From the IMG/VR virus record IMGVR_UViG_3300036832_000493, positions 2,085 to 66,084 of that record: a stretch of DNA of 64,000 bases; one strand, 5' to 3'. Positions within the stretch are counted from its first letter, which is position 1. Each line of letters starts with the position of its first letter. Under the pieces are notes generated by a model. The model saw only the letters and a list, made by a program, of their open reading frames with translations. It was not told the origin of the DNA and ran no database searches. This stretch comes from a virus (Duplodnaviria > Caudoviricetes). Made by a program: the position numbers and the translations under genes. Positions 4,282-49,366 of this stretch are shown here, piece after piece.

Positions 4282-4673
4282 GCATGAAACCCGTCGCCTT
4301 CGACCTCGGCCACCTTGGTTGGCACGATCACATGGGCTGCGCGCTGCTGTGCCCCAGTTGCGAGGGCAACAACCTCCACCTGTGCGAAGGGCGCGTCGCC
4401 ATCGACGGTCAGGGCGACGACGGCGCGTCCTTGGATTTCTGGTGCGAGGGTTGCGGCGGCAACGATGACGTCCCCCTCTGCACCCTGTCCTTCACCAACC
4501 ACAAGGGCACCGTCTACACCACCTTCGAGGTGGATGACGACGTGCTCCTCGCGATGAAGATGGCCGACCGGATCGATCCGTATCAAAAGCACCCGGACAC
4601 CTTCGGCCAGCTTTACGCCCGTATCCAAGCTGCCGTCGCCGAGGCGTACCGGGACAAGGGCACCGATCAATGA
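4278..4673 (+). CDS. Cys-motif (CxxC x2) putative zinc-ribbon protein
   Basis: CPSCEG...WCEGC; ATGA overlap. Confidence 0.7.
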   Translation: MSMKPVAFDLGHLGWHDHMGCALLCPSCEGNNLHLCEGRVAIDGQGDDGASLDFWCEGCGGNDDVPLCTLSFTNHKGTVYTTFEVDDDVLLAMKMADRIDPYQKHPDTFGQLYARIQAAVAEAYRDKGTDQ

Positions 4674-5008
4674 GCGGCGAGGCCGCACGCGACCGGGGCG
4701 TCGCCCGGGTGCTGAACAAGGAAAGCGCGCTCTGGCATGCCAACTACGTCCGGTTCTGCGCCGAGTGGTTCTGGGCGCTGCCGCCGGGCGCGACCTTCAA
4801 GGGCGAGGAACTGCGGCTCAACGCGCTCAGGCGCGGCCTGCCCGAGCCGCACAACCCCAACGTCTGGGGTGCGGCCTCGCTGGGCTACCTGAAGGCCCTG
4901 TTCACCTGCGGCATGGCCGAGACCGTCGGCACGTCCAAGGCGCTGTCGGCCAAGTCTCACGCTCATCAATACCGCATCTATCGCAAGCTCGGGAAAGGGG
5001 ACGCTTGA
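4670..5008 (+). CDS. hypothetical protein
   Basis: ATGA overlap; 112 aa. Confidence 0.7.
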   Translation: MSGEAARDRGVARVLNKESALWHANYVRFCAEWFWALPPGATFKGEELRLNALRRGLPEPHNPNVWGAASLGYLKALFTCGMAETVGTSKALSAKSHAHQYRIYRKLGKGDA

Positions 5009-5029
5009 CCGCCTAAAGTGATTGCTTCA
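5005..5029 (+). promoter_or_regulatory. promoter/operator variant upstream of the RAMP-like gene
   Basis: TTGACcgcctaAAGTgattGCTTca: same geometry as consensus with one mismatch in the palindrome. Confidence 0.7.
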
Positions 5030-5059
5030 AGAACACCGTACTCAACCAAGGAACAGATC

Positions 5060-5665
5060 ATGGCACAGAACCCCGCTGTCGGCGGCGACCAGCTTTCGAC
5101 CCTTAACATCCGCCTCGACGGCGCGTCACCTTTGCTGATGCACAGCACCACCGGCATGGACCCCACCAACCCGCTGGCCCGCGAGATCAGGGCCCTGACC
5201 AGCAAGCAATCCAAGCAGAAGACCGACGAGGACGGCATCGAAATCCAGCGGATGGAGTTCATTCTCGGCCTCTACCGCAACGCCGAGGGCCCGGTCATCA
5301 AGAGTGACATGCTGCTCGCGGCGATCCGCGACGGAGCCAAGCAGATGCGGCAGGGCCGCGAGATCACGCGCTCGGTGTTCTGTTTCGATCTCGACCTGCC
5401 GCTGATCTACGACGGCCCCAAGACCTCCGAGGGCCTGTGGAAGGACAAGCGCTTTGTCGACGCCCGTTCGGTCAAGCTCAAGGCCGCGCGCGTCCTGCGC
5501 ACGCGCCCGATCTTCACCGACTGGGCGCTGGAGGCGGAACTCCATTTCGACGCCGACTACCTCAACCGCGACGACCTGTGCCGCGCGATCAGGGTGGCGG
5601 GAAGCCGCGTCGGCATCGGTGACTACCGCCCGATCTTCGGGAGGTTCGATGTTGCTTTCCTCTGA
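5060..5665 (+). CDS. stand-alone RAMP/Cas7-like RNA-binding protein (Vipr-like candidate effector)
   Basis: AAGGA RBS; 201 aa with RAMP hallmarks: N-terminal strand LNIRLDGASPLLMH, PVIKSDMLLAAIRDGA helix (cf. IPGSSLKGALR) and C-terminal Gly-rich loop AGSRVGIGDYRPIFGRFDV. Confidence 0.75.
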   Translation: MAQNPAVGGDQLSTLNIRLDGASPLLMHSTTGMDPTNPLAREIRALTSKQSKQKTDEDGIEIQRMEFILGLYRNAEGPVIKSDMLLAAIRDGAKQMRQGREITRSVFCFDLDLPLIYDGPKTSEGLWKDKRFVDARSVKLKAARVLRTRPIFTDWALEAELHFDADYLNRDDLCRAIRVAGSRVGIGDYRPIFGRFDVAFL

Positions 5666-6122
5666 CTTCGACGCGGTGAAGGCGGCTGCGGAGGTAGCCG
5701 CCCTCATCTCCAGCGGCGGCATGGTGCTGTCCGAGCGCGCCCGCTTCCGCATCCTTGGCATCATCCACCCGGATGACCTGAACGAACCGTTCGACCGCGC
5801 CGCGTACGATGAACTGCGGATGGCCGCTGTCGAACGCTGGCGGCTGGTTCACGACATCTGCCGCCGCACTTACAACTTCGGCTTCGCGCGCGGTGCCAAC
5901 CGGGGGCACATGCGCCTTCCCGTCGAGGAGGACGTCGAATACAGCTTACGCCGCAGACTGGGTGAGGCGCGCACCGCCTTGGACCGTGCGCGGTTCGAAG
6001 TAGATCACAGCGACGTCGAGAGCATGAGCGACGTTGAACGCGCCGAGCGCGCTAATGCGCTGGTGCGGCTCACCAACTACCGGGCGGCCCTCGATGGACG
6101 ACGCAGGCGGCTCTGGGCATAA
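5649..6122 (+). CDS. unknown 157-aa accessory protein between the RAMP-like gene and the pentamer array
   Basis: GGAGG RBS and ATG inside the 3' end of the upstream gene; MLLSSDFDAV...RRRRLWA; stop is 3 nt before the array. Confidence 0.7.
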   Translation: MLLSSDFDAVKAAAEVAALISSGGMVLSERARFRILGIIHPDDLNEPFDRAAYDELRMAAVERWRLVHDICRRTYNFGFARGANRGHMRLPVEEDVEYSLRRRLGEARTALDRARFEVDHSDVESMSDVERAERANALVRLTNYRAALDGRRRRLWA

Positions 6123-6125
6123 CAG

Positions 6126-6757
6126 GGCATGGCGCGGCATCGGCGCGGCAGGGCTAGGCTCGGCATGGCCCGATCCGGCGGGGCTGGGTTCGGCAGGGCG
6201 GGGCATGGCAGGATACGGCATGGCAAGGCAAGGAGCAGGGGGCTGCGAAATTCCAAGGCGCGGCTCGGCGTGGCTGGGCGGGGCTGGGCGGGGTGTGGCA
6301 CGGTTAGGCGGGGTTCGGCCAGACAAGGCAAGGCAAGGAACGGGGGATGCGAAATTCCAAGGCGCGGCTGGGTCTGGCTCGGCGCGGTTTGGCGTGGCAG
6401 GGCGCGGCATGACCCGGCTTGGCACGGCATGGTACGGCATGGCAGGGAACGGGGGCTACGAAATTCCGAGGCGTGGCTGGGTCAGGCGGGGCGAGGCGCG
6501 GCAGGGCAAGGCAGGATGGGGCAGGGCAAGGGACAGGGGCTACGAAATTCCGAGACGCGGCTCGGCGCGGCTGGGTCTGGCTGGGCATGACAGGGCAGGG
6601 TCAGGCGTGGCGGGGCGCGGCTTGGTCTTGGTGAGGCAGGGTTCGGCCCGGCAGGACGAGGCAAGGAACGGGGGCGTGAGTTTCCAAGGCGTGGTTTGGC
6701 GGGGCTCGGCATGGCGGGGTTTGGCAGGGCGCGGCACGGCACGGCAAGGCATGGCAA
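6126..6757 (+). ncRNA. GGY-NN pentamer guide-like array: six tracts separated by five conserved linkers
   Basis: Tracts 6126-6231 (21 pentamers), 6257-6336 (16), 6361-6445 (17), 6470-6529 (12), 6554-6664 (22), 6688-6757 (14). Linkers 6232-6256, 6337-6360, 6446-6469, 6530-6553, 6665-6687 (consensus GGAACGGGGGCTrCGAAATTCCrA). The repeat structure is directly visible; RNA function is inferred. Confidence 0.8.
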
Positions 6758-6776
6758 GGAAAATGGCTAAAGGGGG

Positions 6777-6821
6777 TTGACGACTGCAAGCACCCGCTTG
6801 TAAGACCCCCTCGTCAGCAAC
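6777..6821 (+). promoter_or_regulatory. early promoter/operator copy
   Basis: TTGACgactgcAAGCacccGCTTgt ... GTCAGCAAC. Confidence 0.8.
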
Positions 6822-6840
6822 TCTCAAGGACACCTCGACC

Positions 6841-7182
6841 ATGTCATACTGCCCGCACACCAACACCGACGTCCGCAACCGCTTCCTCGGCGGCGGCGAG
6901 CCCCTCCCGCTCCTGCTCGGCCAGTTCTGCAACTACCACGCCGCAGGCGTGTTCGAGTACTCCGAGCGGCTGCCGGGCCAGTTCCCCGAGGACTTCTGCC
7001 CCGACTACCAGCACGTCATCTACCTGATCGACGGCAACGTCCGCCTCGCCCGTGTGCTCCAGACCGTCGCCCACGTCGTCATCGACGAGAACGACCACGG
7101 CGCCGTCGTCGAGCGCTGGAAGCTGCGCGGCCACCGCCACTACCCCACGGACTGGGTCTACGAGCCGCTCGTGACAGCGTAA
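6841..7182 (+). CDS. hypothetical phage protein
   Basis: Promoter plus AAGGA RBS; 113 aa. Confidence 0.8.
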   Translation: MSYCPHTNTDVRNRFLGGGEPLPLLLGQFCNYHAAGVFEYSERLPGQFPEDFCPDYQHVIYLIDGNVRLARVLQTVAHVVIDENDHGAVVERWKLRGHRHYPTDWVYEPLVTA

Positions 7183-7410
7183 GCTGTCACATCTCTGCCA
7201 CCGAGACAGAAAAACCGGCGGGCGGGGATTGACCCCGACCACAACAAAGCGCTTTATGCGCATCCGGTGCGGGGCAAGCCGCTTTGCGGCTGATCCTCCT
7301 CCTGACGTCGCAGATTTTCTTGTTCTGTAAGGAAGCTGAAAAGCCCCCGGCGGGCGGGGTTCGTGGGCCCGTCAGTCTTGTCCATCGGTCAGGAATGTAA
7401 GGAACACGCA

Positions 7411-8103
7411 ATGAAGAAGCTTGCTCTAGCAACGGCACTTTGCCTCTTTTCAACGCCTGCAATGGCCGCTGTTCTTATCTGTCAGAGCCCGAACTGCGCG
7501 CCGGGGCCAGAGACGAACATCCTCGTCGATCACCAGCCTTCGGCGAACCTCATCATCGGACGCGCCGATACCAACGGTGGTATCCCCGCTGTGGCCTTCA
7601 CCTCTCCAATCGGCGAGTCCCTTATCGGCAACGCCAACGGGCAGGCCGACGTCTCGGCGGCGGACGGCGCGCTCAACGCGCTGACTTTCACCGTGCAGTC
7701 GGGCTTCACGTTCGGCGATGCCCTGTTCAACCTGTTCCCGCTACCGGGCAATCAAGCTAACGAGGCGATGTTCGCCGACATCAGCTACTTCGTGAACAAC
7801 ATCCTGCACACCGACACGATTGGCATCAACACCAACGGGCAGAACGACACGGGCATCTACGGCACGGCTGGTGAGCGCTTCACCTCGGTCACCTTCCGGG
7901 CGAACCCGCTGACCACGGGCATTCAAGACCTCCGCCAACTGCGCCTGTCCGACATCCAGCAGACGACGCCCCCGCCCCCGCCGCCGCCTCCAGCGGTGCC
8001 CGAACCGGCGGTCTGGCTGACCATGCTGCTCGGCTTCGGCATGATCGGCATGGGGCTGCGCAAGAACCAGTCGACGCCGTCGCGCGTGCGGCTGGCCTAC
8101 TAA
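7411..8103 (+). CDS. PEP-CTERM (PEPxxW-type) exported surface protein
   Basis: Signal peptide MKKLALATALCLFSTPAMA; poly-Pro linker; C-terminal VPEPAVWLTMLLGFGMIGMGLRK (PEP, TM helix, basic tail). Confidence 0.9.
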   Translation: MKKLALATALCLFSTPAMAAVLICQSPNCAPGPETNILVDHQPSANLIIGRADTNGGIPAVAFTSPIGESLIGNANGQADVSAADGALNALTFTVQSGFTFGDALFNLFPLPGNQANEAMFADISYFVNNILHTDTIGINTNGQNDTGIYGTAGERFTSVTFRANPLTTGIQDLRQLRLSDIQQTTPPPPPPPPAVPEPAVWLTMLLGFGMIGMGLRKNQSTPSRVRLAY

Positions 8104-8110
8104 AGGACCG

Positions 8111-8131
8111 GGGCTCGGCAACGCCGGGCCC
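8111..8131 (+). terminator. hairpin after the PEP-CTERM gene
   Basis: GGGCTCGGC-AAC-GCCGGGCCC followed by a pyrimidine-rich tract. Confidence 0.5.
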
Positions 8132-8171
8132 TCCTCCTTCGTTTCCCTTCGACACAAGAGGATGCCCGACC

Positions 8172-8441
8172 ATGAGCAAGCAGAAAGAACCCGAAGCTGA
8201 GAAGCCCGAAGTCGAGATGCCCCGAGAGGGGGACATGGCTATCGCCACGCCCGAGGACGCCCCCAAGAGCGCCTCCGAGACCGCGCTGATGGACTGGGCC
8301 CGCGAGAACGGCCACACCGCCGCGACGGTCGAGGAACTGCGCAACTGGGCGCCGCACGAGATGCTCGAAGCTTACGACAAGGAACAGGCCGAGATCGCGG
8401 CTGCCGCGCCCCCGCCGGGAGCCGACGACGCCACCGACTGA
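8172..8441 (+). CDS. acidic hypothetical protein
   Basis: GAGGA RBS; 89 aa. Confidence 0.7.
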   Translation: MSKQKEPEAEKPEVEMPREGDMAIATPEDAPKSASETALMDWARENGHTAATVEELRNWAPHEMLEAYDKEQAEIAAAAPPPGADDATD

Positions 8442-8469
8442 GGTCGGTGCCTCCTTGGGAGAGGAGCAG

Positions 8470-8502
8470 AAAGGCGCAGGGAGCGATCCCTGCGCCTTTT
8501 TT
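8470..8502 (+). terminator. rho-independent terminator
   Basis: AAAGGCGCAGGGA-GCGA-TCCCTGCGCCTTTTTT. Confidence 0.85.
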
Positions 8503-16139: not shown

Positions 16140-16169
16140 CCCCGTGTCGTGGGCGAGGAACCTCCAGAG

Positions 16170-18233
16170 ATGGACAAGGACGCTTCGCGCAAGAAGTTTG
16201 CGCCCCCGCCTGCGTTGCCCCCGAGGTGGCTACGCAGGCTCAAGGGCTGGCTGCTCTGGGACTTCGAACAGCGCGAGGGCGAGGCCAAGCCGCGCAAGGT
16301 GCCCTACTACCCGAACGGCGCCCGCCGCTCGGGCAAACAGGGCTCGCGCACGGACCGGGCGCACCTTGTCACCTATGCCGAGGCCATCGCGGCGGCGGAG
16401 CGGCTGGACAAGACCGGCGTCGGTCTGGCCATGCTCAAGGACTGGGGCGTCTGCGCCCTTGATTTCGATGACTGCATCCTGCCCGACGGCAGCCTGCCCC
16501 CCGAGATCGCCGAGATCGCCAGCCGCACCTACGCCGAGTACAGCCCCTCGGGCAAAGGCGTGCGCGCTTTCGTCCTCGGCAACTACGGCAACCGCAAAGC
16601 CCGCTCCAAGCCCGGTCAGTACGGCTTCGAGACGTTCTCGACCAAGGGCTTCGTCACCTTTACGGGCAACGTCATCTACCGCTGCAAGGCGGTCGACATG
16701 GACGACACCGTCGCCTCGCTCGACGACCTGATCCAGCCGCTGCACGAAGCGCGCTTCAGCCAGCAGCACCGCGAGGAGGGCGCGGTTTTCGACCCGGACG
16801 ATCCGGGCAACTTCATGCGCATGCACCGCAAGCCGGTCGACCTGACGAACGCCGAGGTCGAAGACCTGCTCTCGCGCCTCGATCCCGACCTGTCCTATCC
16901 CGCGTGGCGCGACGTCGGCTTCGCCCTGCACCACCAGTACGATGGCGGTGAGGAGGGCTTCGACCACTGGAACAGCTGGTCGGTCGGCGGCGGCAAGTAC
17001 CCCGACTACGAGTATCTGCGCTACCTCTGGGAGGGCTTCGGGCACGAGAGCCGCGAGGCCGACCCGATCACCATGCGCACGGTGCTCAAGATGGTCCGCG
17101 ACGACGCGGGCAAGCTCGACGTGTCGGTGCTGCTCGACGACACCCGCGAGACCATCGCCCATGCCGACCCGTCGAGCATGGCGTCGCCCAAGGATTACAC
17201 GGGCAAGTACCGGATCGAGACGACCGCCGACCTGTTCAACGACCCGCCGCAGGAATGGTGGGTCAAGGGCGTCATCCCCAAGTCCATCCTCGGCATGATC
17301 TACGGCCAGTCGGGCCACGGCAAGACTTTCGCCGCGCTCGACCTCGGCCTGTCCATCGCGCGCGGCGTGCCGTGGCAGGGGCACCGGGTCGAGCAGGGGC
17401 GCGTGCTCTACATCGCCGCCGAGGGCCGGGGCGGCATCCGCTCGCGCCTGCAGGCCTACTGCAAGCACCACGGCATCACGCCCGCCGACCTCGCCCTGTT
17501 CGGCATCCTGCGCACCTCGCTCGACATCACCAAGCCCGAGGTCGTCGAGGAACTGATCGCGGCCATCGCTGCCGCCGGGGGCGCCGACTTCATCATCGTC
17601 GACACGCTCGCGCAGGTCACGCCGGGGATCAACGAGAACCAATCGGAAGGCATGAGCACGGCTATCGGCAACTGCGAGGCCATCAGCACGGCGCTCGATG
17701 GCGCGATGGTCTTCTTGGTCCACCACGCGGGCAAGGACTTGAGCAAGGGCGCACGCGGCTGGTCGGGCGTGCGCGCCGCTGTCGATGTCGAACTCGAAGT
17801 CTCGATGCCCGAGGACGCGCCGCGCGTGCTGGCGCTGACCAAGCTCAAGGACGGGCGCGACGGCCTGCGCTGGGGCTTCCGGCTGGAGACGGTCGACCTC
17901 GGGGTCGACGACGACGGCGACCCGGTGTCAAGCTGCGTGCCGGTCTTCAGCGACGCCCCGCCGCCGCGCGTCGAGGAGAAGGGCCGCCGCAAGGTCGAGC
18001 GGTGGAGCCAGCACGAGAGCCACGTCAACGACGTCATGCAGGACATCTACGCGGGCATCGACGACGCGCTCTACACCGAGTTCGTCGCTCGCTGCGTGGA
18101 GGCGTGGCCCGAGCCCGCGCCGGGCGTTCGCGACATCCGCGAGCCACAAGTCAAGACCGCCATCGAGGCCCTGATCAAGCGCGGCAGGATGCGGGTCGAA
18201 CACGGTCGCATTATTTTTCTCGTTGAGGGTTGA
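16170..18233 (+). CDS. primase-polymerase/PriCT-2 fused to an AAA_25 (RepA-like) helicase
   Basis: ALDFD and EYSPSGKGVR (AEP-type primase); YPAWRDVGFALHH (PriCT-2); Walker A GQSGHGKT, Walker B IIVDT, VHHAGK. Confidence 0.9.
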   Translation: MDKDASRKKFAPPPALPPRWLRRLKGWLLWDFEQREGEAKPRKVPYYPNGARRSGKQGSRTDRAHLVTYAEAIAAAERLDKTGVGLAMLKDWGVCALDFDDCILPDGSLPPEIAEIASRTYAEYSPSGKGVRAFVLGNYGNRKARSKPGQYGFETFSTKGFVTFTGNVIYRCKAVDMDDTVASLDDLIQPLHEARFSQQHREEGAVFDPDDPGNFMRMHRKPVDLTNAEVEDLLSRLDPDLSYPAWRDVGFALHHQYDGGEEGFDHWNSWSVGGGKYPDYEYLRYLWEGFGHESREADPITMRTVLKMVRDDAGKLDVSVLLDDTRETIAHADPSSMASPKDYTGKYRIETTADLFNDPPQEWWVKGVIPKSILGMIYGQSGHGKTFAALDLGLSIARGVPWQGHRVEQGRVLYIAAEGRGGIRSRLQAYCKHHGITPADLALFGILRTSLDITKPEVVEELIAAIAAAGGADFIIVDTLAQVTPGINENQSEGMSTAIGNCEAISTALDGAMVFLVHHAGKDLSKGARGWSGVRAAVDVELEVSMPEDAPRVLALTKLKDGRDGLRWGFRLETVDLGVDDDGDPVSSCVPVFSDAPPPRVEEKGRRKVERWSQHESHVNDVMQDIYAGIDDALYTEFVARCVEAWPEPAPGVRDIREPQVKTAIEALIKRGRMRVEHGRIIFLVEG

Positions 18234-44642: not shown

Positions 44643-45110
44643 CTACTTCTTGGGGCCCGCCGATGGCGGCAGACCCTGATCGGGACGCGCAGGCGCCGGA
44701 GGCAGGCCCTGATCAGGGCGACCCGGCGACGGAGGCAGGCCCTGATCGGGATGCCCGGGCACAGGCGGGAGGCCCTGATCAGGATATTCGGGTGCACCGC
44801 CCCAGATACCCGGAGGCACGCCGGGCAGCGTGTTATCGGGCGCACCGGGGCAACCGGGCCAGCTACCGATGGGCAGCGAAGGCAGGCTGTTGTCGATGCC
44901 GGGGATATCACCCGGCAGCGTCTGATCAGGCTCCCCCGGCACACCGACGTCGGGCGCACCCGGCAGACCGTTGTCGACGCCTTCGTCACCGACCTCGATG
45001 ATGATCAGTTCGCGGTAAATATGCTCATAGGCCACGGCGGGCGGAACGCCCTTGGGCTGCTGGAGCTTGACCCGACGAACCGACGAACCAAGCGGAACAC
45101 GGACTGCCAT
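44643..45110 (-). CDS. Pro-rich protein with tandem PD(Q/N)xLP repeats
   Basis: AAGGAG RBS; VDNGLP, PDQTLP, IDNSLP, PDNTLP, and four copies of PDQGLPP. Confidence 0.7.
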   Translation of the reverse strand: MAVRVPLGSSVRRVKLQQPKGVPPAVAYEHIYRELIIIEVGDEGVDNGLPGAPDVGVPGEPDQTLPGDIPGIDNSLPSLPIGSWPGCPGAPDNTLPGVPPGIWGGAPEYPDQGLPPVPGHPDQGLPPSPGRPDQGLPPAPARPDQGLPPSAGPKK

Positions 45111-45200
45111 GACGTTCTCTCCTTGTGTGAGGCGCTGTTGGGTTGCCGTCGCCTGCCCGCGCCGACGCAGGGTCTGGACCCGGTCGTAGTACCACCCTCG

Positions 45201-46676
45201 TCACGCTGCCTCCAGCGCCGCGACCCTTGCGCGCAGCGACTGAATTTCTTTCAGGGCGAGCATCAGCAACCGCGCCGGGTCATAGTGCCATGTGTCGAGG
45301 TTTTCATCAGCGGGCGTGACCGCCTCGGGGTAGACCTCGTAAAGCTCCTGCGCGATGATGCCGTAGCTCTGGTGGAGGCCGGTCTCCTTCCAGTCGAACT
45401 GGACGATGTCGATGGCGTCGATCAACGCGCCGCTGTCGTTGGCGGGCTGGATGTTAGTCTTGAGCCGGAGATCGGAGGACGGGTTGTACGCAGGGGCATA
45501 GAGCGCCTGCCCAAAGTTGTGTCCTCCGCCATTCTCGCTCTGGTAATTTATATTACCTCCAGCACCACTTCCCGCAAACCCGATGTAACCTACACGCGCT
45601 CCAGTCCCAATGAAAAAGCTCACATAACCTGAGTTGGTACCATCCCCGGTTGAGTTAAGTGATGAGCCGCCACAGCCAGACGGCTGAACTGCTATATTAG
45701 CATTAGGGCGGTTAGCCAATAAATTACCAGTACTTTGAACCTGAACAACAGGCTGATTACCTGTGTAAAAATTCAAATTCGAGTTGGCACCATCGAACTG
45801 TATTCCGCAACGAACAGTTCCGTACCAAGAACCTGCTGCATCATAGCCGCAGTAAAGGAACTGACCGTGGTGTAGAAGGAGGCCACCATTGACATCGAGC
45901 AGGTCATGCGGTGTACCATTGTTGAGCCCTACAAAGCCATTTGCATTAATGCGGAACCGCTCACTAAACGCAATGGTGGCATTGGCTGTGTTTGATGCAG
46001 CCGTATTGTAGATGACATAAGTACCCAGCGTCGGATTAAAGCCTATCGTGGTGCTGTAGCCATTCTCAGCAGCTTTCCAGTTCGTCCCGTCGTTGTAAGC
46101 GTTGTAGCTGAACGACCCTCCAAACATCATACTGATGTCGCCACTAACCTGCAGCATGGAGTTGGATAATACAGGGTTGATATTTATTCCAATCTGACCA
46201 GTGGTTAAAATGCGCATCCGCTCTGCGCCGCTGGTCCCAAAAGCTATCGGAAGATAGCCACCAGTTCCTGCTATATCCGCAACAAAATTGAACAGAGTAT
46301 CACTGGCGATGATATTCAGCAGCCCCGAATTATTCGGATCAGCCTTATTGTAAAGCTGGAGTGCGGTTACTAGGCTCGTCCCATTCGGGAGTATGTCAAC
46401 TGCCGTAGCGCCGTTGGCTGTACTGCTCTGCAACGACAACCGCCCCGCCGCCGGGCCGCTGAAATCACCCGTGATGCGCAGACCTGACCCGGAAAAGTTC
46501 AGGTTGCCCGTCATCGTGTCGCCGGTCTTCAGGACGAAGCCCGAGCCGACCGCCGCCTTCAGCGCGGCGCCCACCGTCCCCGCCGGGTAGGTGTTCGCCG
46601 CGTTGTAGCCCATCAGGCCCGCACCCGCCGCCTGCGCGACGTTGTACATATACTGCGAGAGGTTGAAGGGCTTCAT
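45201..46676 (-). CDS. tail fibre / receptor-binding protein with S74 chaperone
   Basis: Start MKPFNLSQY coupled to upstream stop; SDLRLKTNI...[15 protein letters not shown]; AT-richer central part. Confidence 0.85.
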
Positions 46677-49366
46677 GACCGGACCTCCCGCCTGAGCGCC
46701 GCCAGTTCGGCACGGAGGGCGACCACCTCCTTGGCCAGTTCGACGACGGCCATCATCGCCGCGCCGCCGTAGTTGACCGAGAGCATGCCTTCGTCGTTCG
46801 CGTAGACCGCCTCGGGCAGCACCGCCTGCAGCGACTGCGCGCCGACCCCGCACTGAGTGGGCTCGTGGTCCAGATCGGTGCGCTCGTAGATGCCGCTGCG
46901 GACCCCGGCCAGCTTGGTCACGAAGTCGTCCACGGGCGCGCGCCAGTTGATCTTCAGTCGCTCATCCGAGAACGCGGCGATGTTGCCGCTTACAGTCAGG
47001 CCGCCGCCGGGCATGTTGTAATTGGTGCCATCCCAGTAGAGATAGTGGCTACCGGCAGTTCCGAAGAAGATGACACCTGTGTCGTTGCCCCGGTCACAGG
47101 CGATGTCGCCGTTGTTGCGTAGGGCGATATTACCTCCGCCGCCGTTGACGGTGAGGTTGGTAATGACTGGCTGGTTCATGCGGATGCCGCCAGTGTGCTG
47201 ACACCCGATGTAAGCTATGCCTTGCGTCTCGTTAGTAATCCATATGCAAGCATCATCCTTGGCGATGAGCCTGAAATCATGGCCGACATTGTTGTTGACG
47301 CAGCGGATGCCCGCGCTCACGCCCGTGTTACTGACGCTAAATAGCTGCGAGTAACATATGCCTCCTACGGATAGCGGAGCACCGTTCAGGATATACGTGC
47401 CGCCGTCGTAGTAGAGATAGCGGGAAGCCGCGCCGAAAGCGAACACACCCGTGCCGTTGCCCCGGTCCGCCGTCACGTCGCCATTGGTCGCGAGCGTGAT
47501 CTGGCCGCCGCCGCCATTGACAATGAGGTTGCTGCCGCAGGTCAAACCCCCGGTGAAGGTCTGCCCGTTGGCCGAAGACAACGCGCCCGAAGCGAGGTTG
47601 ATGGTGAACGGGCGCAGGTTGTTCCAGCCCCCGTTCGGCGCACCAGCAGTAGGATCACTGAGCAGGATGTAGTAGTTGGACCCGTCAACGCGGTGGATCG
47701 CCGAAACGGCGCTAGTCACCCCGTTCTTGAGCAGCAGCTGGTTGCCGTTGGGGGCTGAGATGGATGCGATCCCGTTGACGTGAAACTCAGTGCTGGGGAT
47801 GACCCCGATGCCAACTCCACCGCCGCCCGGCTGAAGCAGCATTGGGTAAACAGCAGTGCTACCGTCGAACCGCTGCACCTGCATGGCCACCGCGCCGTCA
47901 CTTCTGACACGCGCGCAAAGACCGTAGGAATTATCAGCGTTACGGGAGAGGAGGAGGGTCGCCCCGGCAACGCTACCGAGCACCGTGCTCGATCCGTCGC
48001 CCAGCATGACATGACATCCGGCTCGTGGCGACCAATAGCCGATGCCCCAGACGTTGCCAGAGGAGATCACGCCCCAGTTATTCCCGCCCGCACCGAGGTA
48101 GAGGTGACCGGTCTGCGTGCGGAAATAGCCGTTGGACCCGTCGTGCTGCCAGAGCGCGTTGCCGTTGCCGACACTCATCTGCGCCCCGACAACGGAGAAG
48201 TTCAGGTTGAGATCGAACGAACCGGCCTGCCGCAGACCACTCGCCGCGCCCGCCGCAACGCCAGCTGGACAGGTCCAGAAGCCTATCGCCCCCGTGCTGT
48301 GCGTGAACCCCACCGCCCCGGCAAAGCCCGCGAGGTTTGTCCGCAATGTCGTGCCGTCGTAGTAGCCGTTGAAGTGCAGGCCGCCGTCGCCGCCAGCCGG
48401 GGGCGCGAACAGGGACAAGTCTCCGCCGACCTGCAGCGCCGGTCCCGCCTTCACCGGATAGGACAGCCTGATCCCCGCCTGCCCGCCGACGTTCAGCGCG
48501 TGGACGGTGTCATCCCAGTTGAGATTGGCGTTGTCTTCGGCGAGGTTGCCACCGGACCCGGCGAACGGGATCGAGGCCGGAGTGAACACCGGGTTCACGG
48601 GCGAGCCGAGGAAGGCCTCCAGCAGCACCGTGTCGTTCGCCAGCACGGGCGTGTTGAGCACGACGTGGACGCCGTCCGTCGCCGCATACTCGCTGTCGGC
48701 CAGCCGCACGCCGTTGACGTAGACGCCGACGAAGCCGACCACATAGGGCTGCGGCGTCTGGAACACGACCTCGCCGCCTGCGGCGGTGAACTCCTTGCGC
48801 TGGGCGATGATGTCCCCGATCTGACCCGGATCGCCCTGCGGGCCGACCGGACCAACCGGACCGGGCTTGCCGTCCGGGCCCGGAGCACCGGTCAGGCCGG
48901 TCGCCCCCATCGGCCCGGTCGCGCCGGTCGCGCCGTTCACCCCGGCGACGCCCTGCGGCCCTGCCGGGCCCTGCGAACCGGGGATGCCGGGGTTGCCCTG
49001 ATCGCCTTTGTCGCCCTTGACGCCCTGCGGACCGGGCGCGCCTGCCGCGCCGTTCGGCCCGGCGCCGCCGGTTATGCCCTGCGGCCCCGCTGGCCCGACT
49101 GGACCGACCGGGCCGCCTGCGCCGGTCGGGCCCGGGTCGCCTTTCGACCCTATCGGTCCGGTCGCGCCCGGAGGTCCGACAGGTCCGATATCGCCCTGCG
49201 GCCCGGACACGCCCTGTGGCCCCGGTGGTCCCGGCGTGAGCACTTCAATCCGCGCCTTCCACGTCCGGCCATTGACCGCGTAGGGCAGGAAGCCCTCCTT
49301 GCTGGTCCCTTCATACTCGGGCAGCTTGGTGATCGTCGTCGGGATCAGGTTGGTGGGGACCGACAT
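46673..49366 (-). CDS. collagen-like tail fibre with S74 chaperone
   Basis: Long Gly-X-Y tract near the N-terminus; FSDERLK...[15 protein letters not shown]. Confidence 0.85.

What the first reader, a model, noticed from the sequence alone, without database searches (positions are those of the whole stretch)
6232..6687. Conserved 23-25 nt linker between tracts: probable processing hairpin or handle
Seen: GGAGCAGGGGGCTGCGAAATTCCAA, GGAACGGGGGATGCGAAATTCCAA, GGAACGGGGGCTACGAAATTCCGA, GGGACAGGGGCTACGAAATTCCGA and GGAACGGGGGCGTGAGTTTCCAA. The ends GGAA/TTCC are complementary, and the variants GGAG and GGGA keep pairing through G-U. The last tract ends in a degenerate copy (GGAAAATGGCTAAA), like the terminal degenerate repeat of CRISPR arrays. 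Inference: the linker delimits six individual RNAs of about 85-135 nt.
Basis: partly seen in the sequence, partly recalled or inferred. Interest (0 to 1): 0.75.

Follow-up and report, generated by a model that had tools for sequence, protein, structure and literature searches.

The report
Phage VIPR guide-RNA array with tails
The conserved "linkers" are the short 3' tails that separate six guide RNAs made of GGY-NN five-base repeats, next to the gene for the Vipr protein that reads them: a phage RNA-guided DNA-binding system first described in 2026 preprints, so it is real but no longer a new kind.

Summary
Five near-identical 23-25 nt linkers (6232, 6337, 6446, 6530, 6665) and one degenerate copy (6758) separate six tracts of 5-nt repeats.

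Over 99 repeat units, positions 1-3 read G (99/99), G (91/99) and C or T (99/99). Positions 4-5 are nearly random.

The gene just upstream (5060-5665) matches the solved "SUSP1 Vipr protein" (PDB 36pp_D, E=3.7e-35). The next gene (5649-6122) is a distant relative of the gene that follows vipr in a SUSP1-clade phage (hhalign 98.3%).

This is therefore a VIPR locus: vipr, a vap1-like gene, then a vrRNA array. The kind was described in bioRxiv 10.64898/2026.04.26.720920 and its cryo-EM companion. The linker corresponds to the conserved vrRNA 3' tail.

The hairpin is not supported. It is a 4-bp stem, fold z-scores run from -0.21 to +1.32, and there is no compensatory change.

This tail is shorter than most and was found in no other IMG/VR array. 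I found no convincing DNA target. RNA data could not be obtained.

Verdict: new member of a known kind, moderate interest.

The parts
5060..5665 (+). vipr gene (201 aa from the ATG; a GTG at 5018 would give 215 aa): RAMP-like protein that binds the GGY of each repeat
   Evidence: phmmer against PDB: 36pp_D 'SUSP1 Vipr protein', E=3.7e-35, residues 14-199 against 3-188. phrog_4652, E=1.6e-50. H28, R149, D188, Y189 and R190 align with SUSP1 H17, R138, D177, W178 and R179, the residues that hold G1, G2 and Y3. They are invariant or nearly so in the alignments.
5649..6122 (+). vap1-like accessory gene (157 aa); overlaps the vipr stop by 17 nt
   Evidence: No Pfam, PHROG or PDB sequence match. Only 6 relatives among 1.84 billion representatives. 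Profile of these 7 sequences against Escherichia phage HY02 gp088, the gene right after its SUSP1-type vipr: hhalign 98.3%, E=2.6e-14, 131 columns. AF2 model pLDDT 88.9: three helices, a beta hairpin and two long helices. Foldseek gave only weak rows (E>=0.49), many of them winged-helix proteins.
6116..6141 (+). short leader with 3 GGCNN units, one base out of register with tract 1; overlaps the vap stop codon (6120-6122)
   Evidence: Read from the sequence.
6142..6231 (+). vrRNA1 repeat tract, 18 units (16 GGY, 2 GAY)
6232..6256 (+). tail 1 (25 nt), the first 'linker'
6257..6336 (+). vrRNA2 repeat tract, 16 units (15 GGY)
6337..6360 (+). tail 2 (24 nt)
6361..6445 (+). vrRNA3 repeat tract, 17 units (16 GGY)
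6446..6469 (+). tail 3 (24 nt)
6470..6529 (+). vrRNA4 repeat tract, 12 units (11 GGY)
6530..6553 (+). tail 4 (24 nt)
6554..6664 (+). vrRNA5 repeat tract, 15 + 7 units (19 of 22 GGY), with one extra T at 6629 that shifts the register
6665..6687 (+). tail 5 (23 nt; variant CGTGAGTTTCC)
6688..6757 (+). vrRNA6 repeat tract, 14 units (14 GGY)
6758..6775 (+). degenerate terminal tail (keeps the GGA start, loses the rest)

Best explanation
The region 6116-6775 is the guide-RNA (vrRNA) array of a phage-encoded VIPR system (Viral Interference Programmable Repeat). It is transcribed on the + strand downstream of vipr (5060-5665) and a vap1-like gene (5649-6122).

Each of six units is a tract of 12-22 GGY-NN pentamers followed by a conserved 23-25 nt tail.

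By homology with the SUSP1 system, one Vipr protomer binds each repeat and buries the GGY. This presents the NN dinucleotides, which pair with double-stranded DNA that reads NN-x-NN-x (one base skipped per repeat). The result is silencing of a competing phage or prophage.

The tail marks the 3' end of each guide. It begins with GGA or GGG, that is, a purine where the Vipr pocket accepts only a pyrimidine. I infer that this 'GGR' unit stops the protein filament, and that the rest of the tail caps the 3' end and/or marks where the precursor is cut.

Shown here: the sequence anatomy, the homology of both proteins, and the family-wide linkage of tract, strand and tail start. Taken from the preprints: RNA expression, RNP formation, the skip rule and repression. 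Inferred and untested for this locus: the filament-stop role of GGR, co-transcription and processing of the six units, and the targets.
For: 1. Vipr homology: E=3.7e-35 to PDB 36pp_D 'SUSP1 Vipr protein' over nearly the full length. The equivalents of the GG/Y-contact residues named in the cryo-EM preprint are kept.
2. Repeat statistics over 99 units: position 1 G 99/99, position 2 G 91/99 (the other 8 are A), position 3 C or T 99/99, positions 4 and 5 with entropy 1.87 and 1.97 bits. This is the GGY/NN signature of vrRNAs.
3. Linkage across the family: GGY period-5 tracts of 6 or more units lie in 146 of 160 loci fetched through Vipr homology. They are always on the vipr strand and never on the other. 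They lie in 0 of 19 unrelated loci.
4. The second gene is homologous to the gene that follows vipr in SUSP1-clade phage HY02 (hhalign 98.3%, E=2.6e-14).
5. In a FastTree of 147 Viprs rooted on the divergent Donkeykong protein, the window's Vipr lies inside a 66-leaf clade (support 0.94). That clade also holds the SUSP1-like and Pseudomonas Viprs, the two systems the preprint calls type II.
6. Tail start: in 403 distinct tracts from 177 loci the tail begins GGG or GGA in 275 (68%). The last NN is A[AGT] in 62.5%, against 27.7% of all NN. Here the tails start GGA 5 times and GGG once, and the last NN is AA 5 times and AG once. The cryo-EM preprint states that the Y3 pocket sterically excludes purines.
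7. Not coding: the conserved tail core falls in phases 2, 1, 2, 2 of the one open frame, and that frame has no Pfam or PHROG match.
8. No self-target: best matches in the phage's own genome lie within the range of shuffled guides, as the preprint reports for its systems.
Against: - There is no RNA evidence for this locus, so expression, ends and processing are untested.
- No convincing target was found. Exact core windows of all six guides in IMG/VR gave 0 hits for four guides and 1 chance-level hit each for vr1 and vr4. Nothing was found in 198 fetched loci. Nothing was found for vr3 with up to 3 mismatches in 5 and then 301 genomes.
- The tail is unlike the SUSP1 pseudoknot tail (about 40 nt) and the 55-60 nt Pseudomonas tails.
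- Tracts of 17-22 units exceed the 9-16 given in the preprint.
- The last tail is degenerate and vr5 has a 1-nt register shift, so some units may be decayed.
- The type assignment rests on my own tree and on vap homology. The preprint's type tables are in supplements I could not open.
Confidence: 0.9

Rival explanations
1. The linker is above all a processing hairpin, like a CRISPR repeat. The GGAA/UUCC stem would be recognised and cut by a nuclease (Vipr itself, the 157-aa protein, or a host RNase) to release six RNAs. This refines the best explanation and is not exclusive of it.
For: The six units abut with only 23-25 nt between tracts, which leaves no room for separate promoters, so a precursor is likely. 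No sigma-70-like promoter was found in 4500-8500. The stem pairs in 20 of 20 cells and both substitutions keep G-U pairs. Vipr is RAMP-like, as is Cas6. The preprint describes processed, abutting vrRNAs in other types.
Against: The stem has only 4 bp. Fold energies equal those of shuffles (z -0.21 to +1.32). There is no two-sided change, and the shuffle control is uninformative because the 3' arm is invariant. An alternative register (GGGG with UUCC) is predicted for tails 2 and 5. Many Vipr clades have tails of 7-20 nt with no possible hairpin.
Confidence: 0.25
2. The region is a protein-coding gene: the open frame 6034-6780 (248 aa, rich in Gly, Arg and Ala) with peptide repeats.
For: One + frame is free of stops across the whole array. 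A similar tract in Mycobacterium phage Donkeykong is annotated as a CDS.
Against: A 5-nt period is not a codon period. The conserved tail core is read in different phases (2, 1, 2, 2). There is no Pfam or PHROG match. The other two frames hold only 7 stops in total, so one open frame in G-rich sequence is weak evidence. The same tract is left unannotated in phage Quico.
Confidence: 0.02
3. It is a DNA-level element: iterons or a centromere for a DNA-binding protein, or a G-rich R-loop or G-quadruplex element such as a replication origin.
For: Strong GC skew (+0.19) in 6001-7000, against negative values around it. Dense short direct repeats.
Against: A 5-bp period would put sites on opposite faces of the duplex. 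In 146 of 160 relatives the tracts always lie on the vipr strand, which fits a transcript and not a symmetric DNA site. The adjacent protein is homologous to a protein solved in complex with such RNA.
Confidence: 0.02
4. It is a decayed or decoy array: the tracts no longer guide anything, or they soak up the Vipr of a rival phage.
For: No target was found for any of the six guides. There are 8 GAY units, one register shift and a degenerate last tail.
Against: 91 of 99 units are canonical and position 3 is never a purine. vipr keeps its RNA-contact residues. The target search was narrow: exact 9-10-NN windows in one viral collection and a small genome sample. The preprint also notes frequent internal degeneracy in vrRNAs.
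Confidence: 0.04

Closest known systems
Type II VIPR systems (Escherichia phage SUSP1; Pseudomonas fulva prophage), bioRxiv 10.64898/2026.04.26.720920 and 10.64898/2026.04.26.720927
   Same: A Vipr protein of about 200 aa (36.5% identity to the SUSP1-type Vipr). A vap1-like gene after vipr. vrRNAs of GGY-NN pentamers, each followed by a conserved 3' tail, in an array downstream of the genes and on the same strand. Phage-encoded. No self-target.
   Different: The tail is 23-25 nt with at most a 4-bp stem. SUSP1 has a pseudoknot tail of about 40 nt and the Pseudomonas clade has 55-60 nt multi-hairpin tails. Tracts have 12-22 units against 9-16. The six units abut, whereas the SUSP1-clade phage HY02 has longer conserved sequence between vrRNAs. 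The vap is so diverged that tblastn finds no relative in 198 VIPR loci. The nearest Vipr in 5.8 billion proteins is 54% identical.
CRISPR arrays and crRNA repeat handles (Class 1, Cas6/Cas7)
   Same: A variable guide bounded by a conserved element. A RAMP-fold protein that polymerises along the RNA. A degenerate terminal copy.
   Different: The guide is not a contiguous spacer: information sits in 2 of every 5 bases. There are no palindromic 25-40 nt repeats. I did not scan the window for cas genes; the two flanking genes have no Pfam hit. No acquisition genes were looked for here. Targeting uses a 1-nt skip and forms a triplex.
TRAP binding to (G/U)AG repeats with 2-3 nt spacers in the Bacillus trp leader (recalled, not tested here)
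   Same: An RNA with a trinucleotide repeated at a period of about 5 nt, each bound by one protein subunit.
   Different: TRAP is a closed ring that regulates attenuation and does not use the spacers to read DNA. There is no homology. This was only my first lead, dropped once the Vipr match appeared.
GGCNN tracts next to divergent Vipr genes in Mycobacterium phages Donkeykong, Quico and Florinda (Cheoctovirus)
   Same: The same GGC-NN pentamer tract on the vipr strand. blastn found them through the tract itself (66-79% identity). A Vipr homolog is adjacent (E=3.9e-15 and 1.2e-14 with the profile).
   Different: The tract lies upstream of vipr and runs 250-360 nt without long tails, with occasional 4-nt units. 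The Vipr is detectable only with a profile. In Donkeykong the tract is annotated as CDS gp48.

Membership tests
VIPR system (Vipr + vrRNA) | A Vipr (minimal RAMP-like) protein encoded at the locus | tested here: met
   5060-5665 against PDB 36pp_D 'SUSP1 Vipr protein': E=3.7e-35, residues 14-199 against 3-188. The G-loop motif GDYRPxFGRF and the thumb RTRP are conserved.
VIPR system (Vipr + vrRNA) | Residues that hold G1, G2 and Y3 of each repeat (SUSP1 H17, R138, D177, W178, R179) | tested here: met
   These align with H28, R149, D188, Y189 and R190 of the window protein (alignment; residue roles). The P. fulva protein also has Y at the W position.
VIPR system (Vipr + vrRNA) | Tandem YNNGG repeats (4 or more units) with conserved GGY and hypervariable NN, on the vipr strand | tested here: met
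   99 units in six tracts. G 99/99, G 91/99, Y 99/99; NN entropy 1.87 and 1.97 bits; 15 of 16 dinucleotides used. 33 matches of (GGYNN)5GGY against 0.00 expected. + strand only.
VIPR system (Vipr + vrRNA) | An invariable 3' tail after each repeat tract | tested here: met
   Five copies, 87% mean column identity over tail plus flanks, and one degenerate copy. Sequence and length differ from every tail seen in 177 other loci.
VIPR system (Vipr + vrRNA) | A structured tail (pseudoknot in the SUSP1 clade) | tested here: inconclusive
   Only a 4-bp stem is possible. Fold z-scores are -0.21 to +1.32 and there is no compensatory change. The preprint claims the pseudoknot for the SUSP1 clade only.
VIPR system (Vipr + vrRNA) | A vap accessory gene beside vipr | tested here: met
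   The profile of the 5649-6122 family against HY02 gp088 (the gene after the SUSP1-type vipr): hhalign 98.3%, E=2.6e-14. That gp088 is the preprint's 'vap1' is inferred from its position, not read in the paper.
VIPR system (Vipr + vrRNA) | vrRNAs are expressed as roughly 100-nt RNAs and co-purify with Vipr | not testable with these tools
VIPR system (Vipr + vrRNA) | Natural targets that match the NN by the 1-nt skip rule (80% or more) | tested here: inconclusive
   No self-target. None in 198 loci. Exact core windows of six guides in IMG/VR gave 2 hits, both judged chance. vr3 with up to 3 mismatches: 0 of 5 and 0 of 301 genomes. The search was far narrower than the preprint's nhmmer search.
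VIPR type II (as defined in the preprint) | Place in the Vipr phylogeny with SUSP1 and P. fulva, vap1, and tailed vrRNA arrays | tested here: inconclusive
   In my FastTree the protein lies in a 66-leaf clade (0.94) with SUSP1-like and Pseudomonas Viprs, and the vap is vap1-like. The preprint's type tree and tables (fig. S16, data S4) could not be seen.
CRISPR array | Identical 25-40 nt direct repeats alternating with unique contiguous spacers | tested here: not met
   The intervening tracts are themselves 5-nt repeats.

The most novel reading that the evidence does not exclude
This array is a distinct, minimal architecture within the VIPR family. It would be one precursor RNA carrying six abutting guides of up to 22 repeats (targets up to 65 bp), separated by 23-25 nt tails that lack a pseudoknot. 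In this reading the tail's leading GGR unit stops the Vipr filament. The conserved block from the tail into the first repeat (GGCGY) is a defined cleavage site, possibly cut by the RAMP-like Vipr itself as Cas6 cuts CRISPR repeats. If Vipr processed its own array, that would be a further functional bridge between VIPR and CRISPR.
Probability: 0.15. Interest if true: 0.6.

Novelty: new member of a known kind. Interest (0 to 1): 0.35.

Why it matters
VIPR systems are a very recent discovery: RNA guides that store target information in 2 of every 5 bases and bind DNA through a gapped hybrid.

This locus adds a well-separated member. Its nearest Vipr is 54% identical and its vap family has 6 known relatives. 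It comes from a complete 66-kb environmental phage of about 67% G+C.

It shows that the 3' tail can shrink to about 24 nt, that guides can reach 22 repeats, and that six guides can abut in one array. These facts bear on how vrRNAs are made and how filament length is set.

The survey made along the way suggests a general rule that can be tested. In 403 tracts, 68% of tails start GGR and 62.5% of last dinucleotides are A[AGT].

The survey also flags vrRNA tracts in well-studied mycobacteriophages that are annotated as protein genes or left blank.

For the scan itself, a reader without tools recognised a guide-array architecture from raw sequence alone.

Tried and rejected
- TRAP-like ring binding, Rho or R-loop elements, G-quadruplexes and centromere iterons were my first leads, from recall. 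I dropped them once the literature search and the PDB match identified VIPR.
- Rfam gave no family at gathering threshold in the whole window.
- Coding reading of 6034-6780: rejected.
- Covariation across homologous arrays could not be done. No other array with this tail exists in IMG/VR: 19 single matches of a tail pattern, none beside a tract. The closest Vipr loci I could fetch are at most 44% identical. The 54% relative P0005 carries no accession.
- Alifold on the five copies adds flanking GGC/GCY pairs with one two-sided change (G-C to A-U in tail 5). One of those pairs is broken in tail 4. I give it no weight, because such pairs are expected from the repeat composition and the GGY is protein-bound in the known complex.
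- Target search: see the membership table. The L204 hit for vr1 fails on extension. The L208 hit for vr4 matches 21 of 24 bases, 18 of them forced by the search. Its skipped base falls on codon position 2 of the likely gene and not on the wobble position, and the contig has 60% G+C. I judged it chance.
- Host: no tRNA. The primase-helicase is 42% identical to Caulobacter phages and 45% to a Sphingorhabdus protein. The host remains unresolved, probably a Pseudomonadota.
- The first repeat after each tail looks conserved by my manual parse: GC or GT in 6 of 6. With automatic tract boundaries the share is only 0.43, against a mean of 0.33 in 43 other arrays. I leave it as a minor point.
- Donkeykong gp47, upstream of its tract, is not Vipr-like. 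The Vipr there is gp49.
- The 12-bp repeats of Tweety gp54 are a different feature (passages only).
- Complex prediction was not used, because the report claims no new protein contact.
- The VIA-align search of the vap model had not finished after nine collecting calls.
- Supplementary tables of both preprints were closed. They may list this clade, the tail rule or the mycobacteriophage loci.
Full report
**What is there.**
The window is bases 2085-66084 of a 66,084-b IMG/VR virus record that CheckV rates as complete. Between 6116 and 6775 on the + strand lies a G-rich block (GC skew +0.19 against negative values around it). It is made of 5-nt repeats interrupted by five near-identical 23-25 nt linkers at 6232, 6337, 6446, 6530 and 6665, and it ends in a degenerate copy at 6758.

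(GGYNN)5GGY matches 33 times, all within 6142-6755 on the + strand, against 0.00 expected from shuffles. No other tract exists on either strand of the whole record.

In register, the six tracts hold 18, 16, 17, 12, 22 and 14 units. Over these 99 units position 1 is G in 99, position 2 is G in 91 and A in 8, and position 3 is C in 81 and T in 18, never a purine. Positions 4 and 5 have entropies of 1.87 and 1.97 bits. Tract 5 has one extra T at 6629 that shifts its register.

**How it was identified.**
Rfam gave nothing. A distant blastn of the region against phage records hit only Mycobacterium phages, through a similar GGCNN tract.

A full-text search for 'pentanucleotide repeat' and 'phage' returned the bioRxiv preprint 10.64898/2026.04.26.720920. 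Of this preprint I read:
- the abstract;
- the whole Results;
- the Discussion;
- the first part of the Methods;
- the sections on structure analysis, the targeting rule and natural targets;
- passages including supplementary figure legends.

It describes VIPR systems. These have a roughly 20-kDa RAMP-like protein (Vipr), usually one accessory gene (vap), and roughly 100-nt vrRNAs made of 9-16 YNNGG repeats followed by an invariable 3' tail. The NN dinucleotides pair with double-stranded DNA with one base skipped per repeat. The systems are mostly phage-borne and repress competing phages.

For the companion cryo-EM preprint 10.64898/2026.04.26.720927 I read the abstract, one Results section and passages. 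It shows:
- one protomer bound per repeat;
- G1 and G2 held by H17, D177, R138 and W178;
- Y3 sitting in a pocket that excludes purines;
- a 3' pseudoknot that caps the SUSP1 RNA;
- R-loop growth from the 3' end to the 5' end.

**Tests of membership.**
The gene directly upstream of the array (5060-5665; phrog_4652) matches the PDB chain 36pp_D, 'SUSP1 Vipr protein', at E=3.7e-35 over residues 14-199 against 3-188. H28, R149, D188, Y189 and R190 align with the RNA-contact residues.

The protein has 55 relatives in the 5.8-billion-protein set, the best at 54% identity. It matches 130 phage records by tblastn, mostly Felixounavirus at 36.5%.

I fetched 160 loci through Vipr homology. Of these, 146 carry GGY period-5 tracts, all on the vipr strand and none on the opposite strand. 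Nineteen unrelated loci carry none.

The next gene (5649-6122) has no Pfam, PHROG or PDB sequence match. It has only six relatives among 1.84 billion representatives and no tblastn match in 198 loci.

However, a profile of its family matches gp088 of Escherichia phage HY02 with hhalign probability 98.3% and E=2.6e-14. That gene follows a vipr essentially identical to the SUSP1 one (E=1.5e-127). So the second gene is a diverged vap1-like protein.

Its AF2 model (pLDDT 88.9) has three helices, a beta hairpin and two long helices. Foldseek gave only weak rows (E>=0.49), many of them winged-helix proteins. This agrees with the preprint's 'predicted DNA-binding' vaps but does not establish it.

In a FastTree of 147 Viprs rooted on the divergent Donkeykong protein, the window protein pairs with P0005 (0.88). 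It sits in a 66-leaf clade (0.94) that also holds the SUSP1-like and Pseudomonas proteins. I therefore call the locus type II-like. The preprint's own type tables were not available to me.

**The linker itself.**
In VIPR terms the linker is the vrRNA 3' tail. Measured from tail end to tail end, the units are 115, 104, 109, 84, 134 and 88 nt.

The proposed GGAA/UUCC hairpin is possible: 20 of 20 cells pair, and the two substitutions give G-U pairs. It is not supported beyond that:
- it is 4 bp long;
- the five tails fold no better than shuffles (z -0.21, -0.06, 0.39, 1.32, 0.07);
- the 3' arm never varies, so nothing covaries;
- RNAfold prefers another register for tails 2 and 5.

Tails differ widely between Vipr clades. 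The Pseudomonas clade has 55-60 nt tails with three hairpins. Others have 7-25 nt with no possible stem. The median spacing between tracts is 61 nt, with a 10th percentile of 15.

This phage's tail shares GGGCTAC with the first hairpin arm of several longer tails but lacks the return arm. The motif occurs beside no other tract in IMG/VR.

One feature is family-wide. In 403 distinct tracts from 177 loci the tail begins GGG or GGA in 275. The last NN is A[AGT] in 62.5%, against 27.7% of all NN. This array follows the rule in 6 of 6 units.

The Y pocket excludes purines, so I infer that a GGR unit ends the Vipr filament. This is my inference and is untested. It may already be covered in supplements I could not see.

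**What was not found.**
No guide matches the phage's own genome better than shuffled guides do, which is expected for VIPR. No target turned up in 198 fetched loci.

In IMG/VR I searched exact 9-10-NN core windows of all six guides. Four gave no hit. The other two gave one hit each, at the number expected by chance, and both hits fail on extension or on codon phase.

vr3 with up to 3 mismatches was not found in 5 and then 301 sampled genomes. These searches are much narrower than the preprint's, so the absence means little.

RNA evidence could not be obtained (see Tried and rejected). The host is unresolved.

**Rivals.**
A coding reading fails on the 5-nt period and on the shifting phase of the conserved core. 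DNA-level repeats fail on the strict strand linkage. A decayed or decoy array cannot be excluded, but 91 of 99 canonical units and an intact vipr argue against it.

**Verdict.**
These are guide units bounded by a conserved handle. The hairpin and the processing remain unshown.

The kind has been in print since the 2026 preprints, so this is a new and fairly divergent member of a known kind. Its distinguishing features are a minimal tail, long guides and abutting units.

Noticed in passing
L006 2490-2850 (NC_051648.1, Mycobacterium phage Donkeykong) and L007 2335-2590 (NC_028751.1, Quico); also Florinda: These Cheoctovirus mycobacteriophages carry a 250-360 nt GGCNN tract directly upstream of a divergent Vipr homolog (profile E=3.9e-15 and 1.2e-14). 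In Donkeykong the tract is annotated as protein gene gp48; in Quico it is left blank. The main text of the VIPR preprint does not mention mycobacteria (0 occurrences); its supplements were not seen.
   Followed up: partly
177 Vipr loci (L008-L167, L187-L203), 403 distinct tracts: The tail after a repeat tract starts GGG or GGA in 68% of tracts. The last NN is A[AGT] in 62.5%, against 27.7% of all NN. A purine at the Y position may be a general stop signal for the Vipr filament.
   Followed up: partly
window 6257, 6361, 6470, 6554, 6688 (first unit after each tail) and 6142: By manual parse, the first repeat of every tract reads GGCGY (once GACGC), so the conserved block runs from the tail into the next guide. 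With automatic boundaries the signal is weaker: 0.43, against a mean of 0.33 in 43 other arrays.
   Followed up: partly
window 6629: A single extra T splits tract 5 into 15 + 7 units in different registers. This is either a decayed guide or a bipartite one. The preprint describes 'staggered' arrays with 1-nt offsets in other types.
   Followed up: no
window 7411-8103 (+): A phage-encoded protein with a PEP-CTERM sorting motif (PF07589, E=6e-6; Atlas neighbours are PEP-CTERM proteins of Pseudomonadota). This hints at a host with an exosortase.
   Followed up: partly
window 6777-6815: Right after the array there is TTGACG, then 18 nt, then TAAGAC, and a GGGGG...CCCCC inverted repeat around a 5-bp hairpin, ahead of the gene at 6841. 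This may be a promoter or transcript boundary. The consensus scan did not call it.
   Followed up: no
window 16149-18233 (+): A primase-helicase (PF08707 + PF13481) that is 42% identical to those of 62-kb Caulobacter phages GB2A, RW, RLK and KcrB. It has hundreds of environmental relatives at 42-51%, so the phage belongs to a large uncultured group.
   Followed up: no
window 45001-48000: G+C drops to 56-61% against about 67% elsewhere. This may be an acquired segment.
   Followed up: no
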